Shown here: one piece after another, positions 41,001 through 44,000 of the stretch | Layout: each line of letters opens with the position of its first letter | How positions within the stretch are numbered: position 1 is the first letter of the stretch | Assembly: GCF_902652985.1 (NCBI RefSeq) | Contig: NC_047017.1 | Span: 33,790,001 to 33,854,000, forward strand | Length of the DNA: 64,000 nucleotides | Direction of reading: 5' to 3' | Source of the DNA: Pecten maximus | Taxonomy: Eukaryota | The notes under the pieces: generated by a model | Databases searched by the model: none | What the model was told of the DNA's origin: nothing | The model's input: only the letters and a program-made list of their open reading frames with translations | Position numbers and translations under genes: made by a program

Positions 41001-44000
41001 GACCAATCAGAAAACAACATGGCCGACAGGCAGCCATCTTGGATTTTGACAATTGAAGTTTGTTATCGCTATATTACTCAGAAAGTACTAAAGGGATCTT
41101 TCTGAAATTTGATATGTAGGTTGCCCTTGGTCATTTGTTTTGCATATTTCATTTTGGGACCAATCAGAAAACAAAATGGCCGACAGGTATCCATCTTGGA
41201 TTTTGACAATTGCAGTTTGTTATCGCTATTTCTCTGAAAGCACAGAAGGGATCTTTCTGAAATTTCATAATGTAGGTTCCCCTTGGTTCCATATTATGCA
41301 TATTGCATTTTCGGACCAGTCGGAAAACAACATGGCCAACAGGTAGCCATCTTGGATTTTGACAATTGAAGTTTGCTATCGCTATTTCTCAGAAAGTACT
41401 TAAGGAATCTTTCTCAAATTTCATATGTAGATTCCCCTTGATCCCAAGTTGTCCATATTTCATTTTGGGACCAATCAGAAAACAACATGGCCGACAGGTA
41501 GCCATCTTGTATTTTGACCATTGAAGTTTGTTATCGCTATTTCTCAGAAAGTACTGAAGGGATCTTTCTTAAATTTAATATATAGGTACCCTTTTGGTCC
41601 CTTGTTATAGATATTTTATTTTGGAACCAAACTGATAACAACATTGGTGATGGGCAGCCATCTTGGATTTGGCAATTGAAGTTTGTTATCGCTATTTTAC
41701 AGAAGGTACTGAAGGGATCTTTCTAAAATTTCATATGTAGGTTCCCCTTGGTCCCTCGTATTGCATTTATGGACAATCTGAAAACAACATGGTCGACAGA
41801 CAGTCATTATCGCTAAATCTCAAATTTCATTTTCTTTGAAAAGTACTGGAGGGATGTTTCTCAATTTACACAGATTAGTAAGAGGAAGGAATAATAGAGA
41901 GAAGATCAATCTGACATGGAACATATAAAGATCATTTAATGGTGGGCGCCAAGATCCCTCTGGGATCTCTTGTCAGAGCTCAGTATGAAATTATTATATG
42001 CCTCGGGTGTTGTGTTTGTATCTAAAGTAGGCTGACTTAATGTAGTGAAATATTTGTTGGATGTTAAGAATTGATTTTGAAGTTTGCCTGTCGCCATGGT
42101 TTATCATTAACATCAGGGTTGTTATATGTATATGTGGTAATCTCACTGCCCCAATCATTATCATGTTACCCTGTTAAGGCATTTGACTGTTTACTGTTGT
42201 ATGTAAACATTTATAATTAGATGTCATTTTAGCTGGGTGATATTTTTTTATCTAAACCTTTGTGAATGTTAGATGTTTCTTATATCTTTATGGTGTTTGA
42301 AATTTAAAGAAAATGATAATTTAATCTTGTTAACATATTTTTTAAGGCCTCTTATTCCCATTTTTGAGCAAAGTCATATAAACAAATACCCTTGTATTGG
42401 AGATGTGATGATTATGTGTACCCTTGATGAATCCAAAAATGGTTATATCTAGCAGCGACTCTTTATACGATAATAAAAAAAATCTCTCTCTGATATAACA
42501 GCTTGTACCAGATAGAGCTGATTTGTTTGTATCAGTGGAGCACTAAACACATAGATAAGTGTTGTGTAACACATGAGTTGGAACAAATTAGAGTACTGGG
42601 ATAATATGGTATTGAATGGCCATGTCCTTCTTACAGGAGATGCGCCGAGAACTAGACGACTATGAGGAATTATTTAACCGCTATCTTCAGGAGACTGGAC
42701 CGTCCTTTATGTGGGACAGAATCAAACTTTTACCAGATGATGCTGTAAGTATACTTCTACCTGGCAATGACATAAGTACACTTTTACCTGGCAATGATCT
42801 AAGTACACTTTTACCTGGCAATGATCTAAGTACACTTTTACCTGACAATGCTGTAAGTACATTTTTACCTGACAATGCTGTAAATACACTTTTACCTGGC
42901 AATGACATAAGTACACTTTTACCTGGCAATGATCTAAGTACACTTTTACCTGGCAATGATCTAAGTACACTTTTACCTGACAATTCTGTAAGTACATTTT
43001 TACCTGACAATGCTGTAAGTACACTTTTACCTGGCAATGCTTAAGTACATTTTTACCTGGCAATGACATAAGCACACTTTTACCTGGCAATGACATAAGC
43101 ACACTTTTACCTGGCAATGACATAAGCACACTTTTACCAGGCAATGCTGTAAGTACATTTTTACCTGACAATGAGTTAAGTACATTTTTACCTGACAATG
43201 AGTTAAGTACATTTTTACCTGACAATGAGTTAAGTACATTTTTAACCTGGCAATGCTGTAAGTACACTTTAATTTGAATAACTTTTATCATTTGTGGTTG
43301 TAGGTGAAGACTTATGGCGAGCTACAGATACCAGATCCAGACAAGATCAAGGATTTACTTAACAAACTGGTTGTGGTGAAGCTCAATGGAGGCCTTGGTA
43401 CCAGTATGGGTTGTACTGGCCCAAAAAGTGCCATCAGTGTCCGAAATGAGCTCACCTTCTTAGACTTGACTGTCCAGCAGATTGAGGTAACAATAATGAG
43501 TACAGGATCCATCCACTTACCATATTTCATCACTGGTGTAATGACCAGATGTCTCTGTTTAAGTCGTCTCATTAATACAGTTCTGTTAATGAGTTGTTGA
43601 GGGGGTCAGTTTGAGAGTGGGGGTTCACTGGCTAGGGAAACAGTGTGAAGTGCTACCCGTAAACAGTGTGAAGTGCTACCCATGAAGTAGCTCTGTAAAT
43701 ATTGGAGTTGATGGGAGGAGTTGAGAGGAGTCATTGTTTGGGGTGAAGGGTAGGACATCTTAATGATTTAATTCTTTATAGTTTACATAGTATTTGATAT
43801 TTTTAGGTAACCTGAGACAAAGTCTCAAGTGACCTATTCTAACCACCTTTTGTCCGTCGTCGTGCATCATGCATCTGTAAACAATTTGCATTTCCAACTT
43901 CTCCAAAACCGCTGAAACAAATTCAATGAAATTTGGCAGGAAGCTTCGATGACCAAAGGTCAACCAAAATTGTGAATTATATGTCCCAAACCACCAAGGG

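What the first reader, a model, noticed from the sequence alone, without database searches (positions are those of the whole stretch)
42727..43270. Minisatellite born from an exon/intron junction creates extra in-frame 5' splice sites in UGP2
Seen: the 27-bp unit copies the last 18 exon nt plus the first 9 intron nt. Beyond the true donor (42745), GT donors recur in frame at 42853 (gtaagt), 42880 (gtaaat), 42988 (gtaagt) and 43015 (gtaagt), with no stop until 43042. Use of these would insert 36, 45, 81 or 90 aa of (VSTLLPDNA)-like repeats before the catalytic domain. Donors at 43149 and 43258 lie past the stop and would give truncated or NMD products. Most other copies have GT changed to AT, CT or TT, consistent with selection against decoy donors (inference). 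Copy number could tune UGPase splicing and hence glycogen precursor supply.
Basis: partly seen in the sequence, partly recalled or inferred. Interest (0 to 1): 0.7.

Follow-up and report, generated by a model that had tools for sequence, protein, structure and literature searches.

The report
Repeated splice donor in scallop UGPase
In a scallop gene for the enzyme that makes UDP-glucose, the end of one exon and its splice signal are repeated 20 times into the next intron, but the assembled RNA joins only at the first, original signal, so this is likely a harmless example of a repeat type that is common in this genome and already known from human and lancelet genes.

Summary
A 27-bp unit in 20 copies (42727-43270) spans the exon 3/intron 3 donor of a scallop UGPase gene and occurs only here in the genome; the in-frame GT copies, insert sizes and the stop at 43042 are as described. 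The functional reading is not supported. In 5 of 5 runs where the joint letters were shown (5 studies), the single contig joins 42744 to 43304; none of 12 scallop UGPase sequences has an insert. GT loss is no greater among in-frame copies (6 of 10) than after the stop (7 of 9), and nine other donor-spanning arrays in this genome keep GT in 164 of 169 copies. Such arrays are common here: 9 of 200 sampled donors, 5 of 201 acceptors. Best reading: a locally born 'mirage'/F7-intron-7-type minisatellite whose later donors stay silent because the first is chosen. Rare decoy use cannot be excluded with contigs, and array length variation was not testable. The scan has noted the same type before, in this genome and in others. 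Side result: arrays start about 2.4 times more often within 50 nt of exon borders.

The parts
13040..53788 (+). UGPase (UTP--glucose-1-phosphate uridylyltransferase, UGP2 orthologue) gene, 14 coding exons, 13 GT-AG introns
   Evidence: The spliced model translates to a 519-aa protein identical to P0004, named Pecten maximus UGPase isoform X1 by its source; exon 4 matches human UGP2 chains 4r7p and 3r2w at E 1.4e-20
42637..42744 (+). Coding exon 3 (108 nt, ends ...LLPDDA, phase 0)
   Evidence: RNA contigs cover it in 4 of 4 runs
42727..43270 (+). 27-bp minisatellite, 20 copies; first unit = 18 exon nt + 9 intron nt; fills 526 of the 559 nt of intron 3
   Evidence: single locus in the genome
42745..42752 (+). 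Authentic 5' splice site, the only one seen used
   Evidence: Loose-end letters of contigs in X8 and X6, X19, X12, X17
42754..43023 (+). 135-bp higher-order duplication (units 2-6 and 7-11), which doubles two GT-bearing copies into four
   Evidence: 3 mismatches in 135; identity 0.978 at lag 135 against 0.85-0.93 at the five other lags tested
42853..42858 (+). Pseudo-donor GTAAGT, in frame (+36 aa), not seen used
42880..42885 (+). Weak pseudo-donor GTAAAT, in frame (+45 aa), not seen used
   Evidence: U1 duplex -1.6 kcal/mol against -7.3 for the authentic site
42988..42993 (+). Pseudo-donor GTAAGT, in frame (+81 aa), not seen used
43015..43020 (+). Pseudo-donor GTAAGT, in frame (+90 aa), not seen used
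43042..43044 (+). First in-frame stop (TAA) of the read-through, brought into frame by the one-base deletion in unit 12
43149..43154 (+). Pseudo-donor past the stop and out of frame
43258..43263 (+). Last pseudo-donor, past the stop; would leave a 46-nt intron (shortest real intron of the gene: 110 nt)
43271..43303 (+). Unique 3' end of intron 3 with the acceptor AG at 43302-43303
43304..43486 (+). Coding exon 4 (VKTYG... to the GGLGTSMG nucleotide-binding loop region)
   Evidence: RNA contigs in 4 of 4 runs, joined on to 45530

Best explanation
This is a 27-bp minisatellite made from the exon 3/intron 3 border of a scallop UGPase gene, and the assembled RNA splices at the first donor only, so the later donor copies are likely silent passengers. 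Shown: the unit spans the border, exists only at this locus, and has grown by single-unit and five-unit duplications; the transcripts seen and all annotated scallop proteins lack the insert; arrays that copy a donor sit at about 4.5% of sampled donors in this genome. Inferred: a first tandem duplication by slippage or unequal exchange caught the donor by chance in a genome where about a fifth of genic DNA is such arrays; the first copy keeps the exon context and is chosen by first-come, exon-definition-type selection as shown for human F7 intron 7, helped slightly by one more U1 base pair at +8; any leak to sites past 43042 would be cleared by NMD; the GT changes are mostly drift of a few variant units spread by array turnover.
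For: Single locus. Unit anatomy and 135-bp duplication. Contigs join 42744 to 43304 by letters in 5 of 5 runs where the letters were shown, from 5 studies; one contig was laid per run and none went past the donor, at 85% likeness. 18 of 24 listed runs hold the same share of words, 0.27, and none more; exon-only words predict 0.279, any extended form 0.39 or more. 0 of 12 scallop UGPase sequences (RefSeq isoforms of three species, three Logan proteins) have an insert here; the repeat peptide finds nothing among 7,998 scored candidates. The W...Y spacer that holds the joint is 13 aa in 112 of 113 homologues with both anchors (130 aligned). 9 of 200 donors and 5 of 201 acceptors in myosin and kinesin genes are spanned by arrays, which gives about a 45% chance of at least one spanned donor in a 13-intron gene. 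Those nine keep GT in 164 of 169 copies. F7 precedent: PMC1557585; lancelet 'mirages': PMC3087553.
Against: This array is the outlier among ten: 13 of 19 copies lost GT, column +1 holds all four bases (P 0.008 if that column is named in advance, 0.10 for +1 and +2 together, 0.20 for any column), and all 12 copies with A at -2, nearer the donor consensus, lack GT. Five pseudo-donors differ from the authentic site by only 0.5 kcal/mol in U1 pairing and are no more buried by predicted folding. In IFI6 (6-16) and CBS the nearest pseudo-sites are used (PMC1557585 introduction). Spanned donors exceed the mean-density expectation (9 against 3.8, P 0.016), so pure chance placement is not the whole story.
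Confidence: 0.8

Rival explanations
1. Leaky decoys under purifying selection: the in-frame, stop-free copies are used at a low rate, escape NMD and would give UGPase subunits with a 9- to 90-aa insert at a length-conserved site, so units that lost +1 G were favoured in this array. No regulatory role, but selection shaped the array.
For: Only array of ten with heavy GT loss (6 of 19 kept against 164 of 169); 7 of the 9 others have no in-frame, stop-free decoy at all; +1 shows three substitutions and a deletion; the three copies nearest the exon all lack GT; the insertion site keeps its length in 112 of 113 homologues.
Against: GT loss is 6 of 10 in the in-frame zone and 7 of 9 after the stop; the three nearest copies lacking GT has P 0.30 by chance; +2 never varies while -1 has three derived states, which points to a local mutation cluster; this array is also the most diverged of the ten (25% of other positions differ from the first unit, against 2-19%); a kinesin array (G000:C2, donor 1574867) keeps two equal-strength, in-frame, stop-free decoys; the variants can be reached with as few as two GT-destroying events (inference).
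Confidence: 0.14
2. One reading: a functional VNTR whose copy number tunes the share of normal, insert-bearing and NMD-bound UGPase transcripts and so the supply of UDP-glucose for glycogen.
For: Four GT copies are in frame with no stop before them; human IFI6 and CBS use nearby pseudo-donors (PMC1557585 introduction); repeats at exon-intron borders can yield alternative transcripts in human duplicated genes (PMC2812944, passages).
Against: No alternative joint in the runs laid, no run with more than the exon-only word share, no insert-bearing isoform or protein; the nearest intact decoy is 108 nt away and F7 work shows pseudo-site activation falls with distance; a 27-nt unit is in frame one time in three by chance; the four in-frame sites come from one 135-bp duplication. 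Length polymorphism is not shown.
Confidence: 0.04
3. The decoys are hidden by RNA structure: each unit carries a UUUAC stretch that can pair with the GUAAG of a donor copy, so the array folds its own pseudo-donors away.
For: The complementary stretch is in every unit and pairs with donor copies in the minimum-energy fold.
Against: The authentic donor is predicted to be as buried as the copies: unpaired probability of +1..+6 is 0.004-0.023 for 42745 and 0.003-0.118 for the six copies over three window sizes. The stretch is exon coding sequence (L-L-P), so its presence needs no explanation.
Confidence: 0.02

Closest known systems
Human F7 intron 7 (IVS7) 37-bp VNTR (Borensztajn et al. 2006, PMC1557585; seen: abstract, passages of introduction and results, whole Discussion)
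   Same: First unit spans the exon-intron border; the donor is repeated downstream; only the most upstream site is used.
   Different: F7 has 5-9 identical copies, 4 exon bases in the unit and known length alleles, and minigenes showed the pseudo-sites can be activated. Here 20 copies, 18 exon bases, 13 of 19 copies without GT; polymorphism and latent activity untested.
Amphioxus 'mirage' minisatellites (Adh3, globins BflGb6 and BflGb9; PMC3087553, passages seen; the Adh3 paper PMC117041 is not held, and is cited only through PMC3087553)
   Same: Tandem copies of an exon-intron border in a marine invertebrate; many but not all copies keep splice signals; normal splicing is undisturbed; both 5' and 3' borders are copied, as in my scallop sample.
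   Different: Cephalochordate, units of 10-160 bp, haplotype and somatic length variation shown there and not testable here. No bivalve report came up in the searches.
Human IFI6 (6-16) intron 2, CBS intron 13, LMNB2 and PDGF intron 4 minisatellites (only as summarised in the introduction of PMC1557585)
   Same: Donor-spanning minisatellites with 10-25 pseudo-sites.
   Different: IFI6 and CBS use two nearby pseudo-sites as well; LMNB2 and PDGF use only the authentic one, which is what the contigs show here.
Tandem-repeat-rich scallop genomes (PMC5700196: 11.3% in Chlamys farreri; PMC10225492: 21.7% in Amusium pleuronectes; passages only, supplementary Table S13 not read)
   Same: Tandem repeats are the largest repeat class; my 731-kb genic sample is 21% arrays, the window 48%.
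   Different: The passages seen do not treat arrays at splice junctions; the supplements may.

Membership tests
Donor-spanning minisatellite (F7 IVS7 / 'mirage' type) | Head-to-tail minisatellite unit in several copies | tested here: met
   27 bp x 20.2, 89% matches
Donor-spanning minisatellite (F7 IVS7 / 'mirage' type) | First unit overlaps a real exon end and its 5' splice site | tested here: met
   Exon model identical to P0004; RNA joint at 42744/43304
Donor-spanning minisatellite (F7 IVS7 / 'mirage' type) | Donor motif repeated in downstream copies | tested here: met
   6 of 19 copies keep GT, 5 keep GTAAGT
Donor-spanning minisatellite (F7 IVS7 / 'mirage' type) | Born locally, not a dispersed satellite family | tested here: met
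   17 of 17 pattern hits in the genome lie in this array
Donor-spanning minisatellite (F7 IVS7 / 'mirage' type) | Authentic first donor dominates splicing | tested here: met
   5 of 5 runs with visible joint letters; contigs only, so dominance and not exclusivity
Donor-spanning minisatellite (F7 IVS7 / 'mirage' type) | Copy number varies between alleles (VNTR in the strict sense) | not testable with these tools
   One copy of the locus in the assembly; no DNA reads across the array were available
Donor-spanning minisatellite (F7 IVS7 / 'mirage' type) | Pseudo-donors become active when the first is mutated | not testable with these tools
   Needs a minigene
Repeat that supplies used alternative donors (IFI6 / CBS subtype) | Transcripts spliced at downstream copies | tested here: not met
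   None; word share at the exon-only level in 18 of 24 listed runs and never higher; rare forms would be missed
Coding minisatellite (exonised repeat) | Repeat peptide present in annotated or assembled proteins | tested here: not met
   0 of 12 scallop sequences; no hit at E 0.01 (weak evidence by the tool's own note)
Eukaryotic UGPase (Pfam PF01704, UGP2 orthologues) | Full-length PF01704 protein with GGLGTSMG loop | tested here: met

The most novel reading that the evidence does not exclude
Scallop minisatellites are born preferentially at exon borders (26 array ends within 50 nt of a junction against about 11 expected from the 50-400 nt rate; about 4.5% of donors copied), so thousands of genes carry ladders of decoy splice sites. 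Most ladders hit a stop and are tolerated; where a ladder is in frame and stop-free, as in UGPase, leak to the decoys escapes NMD, selection strips the GT, and the surviving copies make array length a heritable dial on the amount of intact enzyme.
Probability: 0.08. Interest if true: 0.55.

Novelty: new member of a known kind. Interest (0 to 1): 0.17.

Why it matters
For this locus, little: it is a tolerated repeat of a described type in a housekeeping gene, and the RNA seen is normal. It matters in practice as a trap for read mapping and gene prediction. The wider point has more value: if about 4.5% of donors (95% interval 2-8%) and 2.5% of acceptors in this genome are followed or preceded by copies of themselves, the scallop offers thousands of natural F7-type experiments with which first-come 5' splice-site choice, and its mirror at 3' sites, could be measured from existing RNA-seq outside mammals.

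Tried and rejected
Dispersed satellite inserted beside the exon: rejected, pattern found only here. Masking of decoys by RNA structure: no difference from the authentic donor. General purge of GT in donor-spanning arrays: rejected, +1/+2 differ in 5 of 338 cells against 456 of 6,479 at other columns in the nine other arrays (copies within an array are not independent). Protein search with the read-through peptide: nothing. One homologue, P0095, has a 36-aa spacer at this site; it is not repetitive and looks like an intron read-through in a gene call (inference). Allele comparison: the locus has no second copy in the assembly; three unplaced contigs that duplicate myosin or kinesin loci were compared but none held a complete, comparable junction array, so nothing was learned on length variation. 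No relatives of this genome are held, so the orthologous intron in other scallops could not be read. Absence of contig cover inside the intron is taken only as 'not seen'. Paper searches with no useful result: (0 papers); PMC117041 not held. No structure or complex prediction was run, as no insert-bearing protein is in evidence.

Full report
Gene and place. The window holds a complete UGPase gene on the + strand. Exon 4 matches human UGP2 structures and scallop proteins at 97-98%. tblastn with P0004 placed the exons, and a 14-exon GT-AG model from 13040 to 53788 translates to a protein identical to P0004, which its source names Pecten maximus UGPase isoform X1. Intron 3 runs 42745-43303 (559 nt, phase 0), between ...LLPDDA and VKTYG.... 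The window is 48% tandem arrays by my hand-merged list of 22 arrays from the 57 TRF rows.

The observation. TRF finds a 27-bp unit in 20.2 copies at 42726-43270. The first unit is 18 exon bases plus 9 intron bases. Of 19 downstream copies, 6 keep GT in the donor position (42853, 42880, 42988, 43015, 43149, 43258) and 13 read AT, CT or TT. The first four are in frame with no stop before 43042 and would add 36, 45, 81 or 90 residues; 43149 is out of frame and 43258 would leave 46 nt of intron. Units 2-6 and 7-11 are one 135-bp duplication with 3 mismatches, so the four in-frame sites are two events doubled. A unit pattern finds 17 matches in the genome, all in this array: the array was born here.

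Are the extra donors used? 24 runs were listed; 18 hold 0.27 of the sampled words, 2 hold 0.15, 4 next to none, and none holds more. Words lying wholly in exons 3 and 4 are 229 of 820 distinct 31-mers (0.279); an exon extended to the first decoy would give 0.39. This is indirect, since only 89 words are sampled and array alleles may differ. I laid 6 of the 24 runs, all as assembled contigs. On 43275-45700 each of X6, X19, X4 and X8 has one contig that enters exon 4 at 43304 and is spliced on to exon 5; for X8 the upstream letters are shown and are the end of exon 3; for the other three the loose-end table was cut. On 42520-42780 at 85% likeness, exactly one contig was laid in each of X6, X19, X12 and X17; all leave at the authentic donor and continue with exon 4 letters, and none reads into the intron. 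So the joint is seen by letters in 5 runs of 5 studies and is 42744/43304 in all 5; X4's letters were not seen. Only X8 is on record as RNA, but the others are spliced. At protein level, 12 scallop sequences (RefSeq isoforms of three species and three Logan proteins) differ at the N terminus but none has an insert here; the read-through peptide finds no relative among 7,998 scored candidates; the W...Y stretch around the joint is 13 residues in 112 of 113 homologues with both anchors, of 130 aligned, so an insert would likely be poorly tolerated (inference).

Is GT selected against? For: column +1 holds all four bases, the highest entropy of 27 columns; with 17 derived states scattered at random this has P 0.008 for that named column, 0.10 for +1 and +2 together, 0.20 for any column. 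All 12 copies with A at -2 lack GT, and the three copies next to the exon lack it. Against: +2 never varies; -1 has three derived states, one of them towards the consensus; loss is 6 of 10 in the in-frame zone and 7 of 9 after the stop; three dead copies first has P 0.30; the copies descend from a few variant units, so counts are not independent. The authentic site pairs with a recalled U1 5'-end motif at -7.3 kcal/mol, five copies at -6.8 and one at -1.6; local folding buries the authentic site as much as the copies.

How common is this in the genome? I searched G000 with two Pfam families (myosin head, 82 matches; kinesin, 134 matches) and fetched 80 stretches. I left out 10 matches on unplaced contigs and 4 that I did not fetch; one more lacked flanks, leaving 201 of 216. 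The merged 731 kb hold 274 arrays (period 10 or more, 2.5 copies or more), 21% of the bases. Splice sites were picked by reading frame and rough recalled weight tables, not by RNA; I inspected by eye the arrays near match ends. 9 of 200 donors and 5 of 201 acceptors are spanned by an array; one of the nine starts exactly at +1 and one of the five includes only one or two exon bases. At these rates a 13-intron gene has a 45% chance of a spanned donor. Mean array density predicts 3.8 of each (P 0.016 for donors, 0.34 for acceptors). Array ends lie within 50 nt of a junction at 1.39 per kb against 0.57 per kb at 50-400 nt (26 and 61 events; P 0.0003); loss of unique intron DNA or uneven array density among introns could give this as well as junction-linked birth. 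9 against 5 is not a significant donor/acceptor difference (P 0.42). The nine other donor arrays keep GT in 164 of 169 copies, among them 28 of 28 copies of a full consensus donor. Seven of the nine have no in-frame, stop-free decoy; two do, and one of these keeps two equal-strength decoys. So there is no general purge; the UGPase array is the outlier, and also the most diverged of the ten.

Mechanism. Shown: local origin, stepwise growth, use of the first donor in the contigs. Inferred: a chance duplication over the border, then slippage and unequal exchange; choice of the first site by exon definition or 5'-to-3' first-come selection, as shown by minigenes for human F7, where pseudo-sites do not compete and their activation falls with distance (PMC1557585; abstract, passages, Discussion); NMD for any product past 43042 (established knowledge, not tested here). 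I put 0.80 on silent passenger, 0.14 on leaky decoys under local selection, 0.04 on a regulatory VNTR, 0.02 on structural masking.

Known kinds. It works like, and meets all testable features of, the donor-spanning minisatellites of human F7, LMNB2 and PDGF and the lancelet 'mirages' (PMC3087553, passages). It fails the test for the IFI6/CBS subtype with used pseudo-donors, within the limits of contigs. Scallop genomes are known to be rich in tandem repeats (PMC5700196, PMC10225492; passages; supplements not read and may bear on the genome-wide figures). Searches gave no paper on junction-spanning arrays in bivalves; the library is partial. Earlier AI notes of this scan describe the same type in this genome and in mussels and sharks; I treat them as leads, not support.

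Verdict. Real, correctly described, ordinary for this genome; a new member of a known kind. The splicing-tuning idea has no support in the data I could reach. Interest 0.17.

Noticed in passing
G000 myosin and kinesin genes, donors at C2:24751996(+), C9:38740688(+), C10:5181913(+), C7:45384904(-), C10:5180507(+), C12:22625919(+), C3:27222577(-), C2:1574867(-), C10:5199005(+): Nine more donor-spanning minisatellites (units 26-70 bp, 3-54 copies), nearly all copies keeping GT; splicing not checked against RNA.
   Followed up: partly
G000 kinesin genes near C1:55294267-55296271(+), C18:1788029-1788566(-), C18:1784255-1784891(-), C18:1738500-1738622(-), C16:748575-748661(+): Acceptor-spanning arrays; the C1 array has about 41 copies of a 49-bp unit that keep the AG in the five copies viewed, upstream of the real exon, which would test 'first AG' rules at 3' splice sites.
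   Followed up: partly
G000 731-kb genic sample: Array ends are about 2.4 times denser within 50 nt of exon borders than at 50-400 nt, on both donor and acceptor sides; cause unknown.
   Followed up: partly
window 1-64000: About 22 different minisatellites with unrelated units make up 48% of the window, several 2.5-5.2 kb long inside UGPase introns 1 and 2.
   Followed up: no
window 40751-41756 and 13-374; also L099 and several fetched stretches: A 155-158-bp satellite that, unlike the local minisatellites, recurs at many loci at 90-97% identity: a dispersed family.
   Followed up: no
window 43761-44986: Intron 4 holds short dispersed repeat pieces that attract hundreds of high-depth contigs in every run laid.
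   Followed up: no
window 13040-31892: Scallop UGPase isoforms differ at the N terminus (MSAMT..., MATT..., and shorter starts), so alternative first exons exist; the exon for the MATT form was not located.
   Followed up: no
window 49121-49189 and 49363-49394: Two short coding exons (69 and 32 nt) in the middle of the catalytic domain.
   Followed up: no
window 58686-58710: A run of 25 C.
   Followed up: no
P0001: A tree-shrew UGP2 database protein with an internal duplication of the exon-4-like segment; possibly a gene-model artefact.
   Followed up: no
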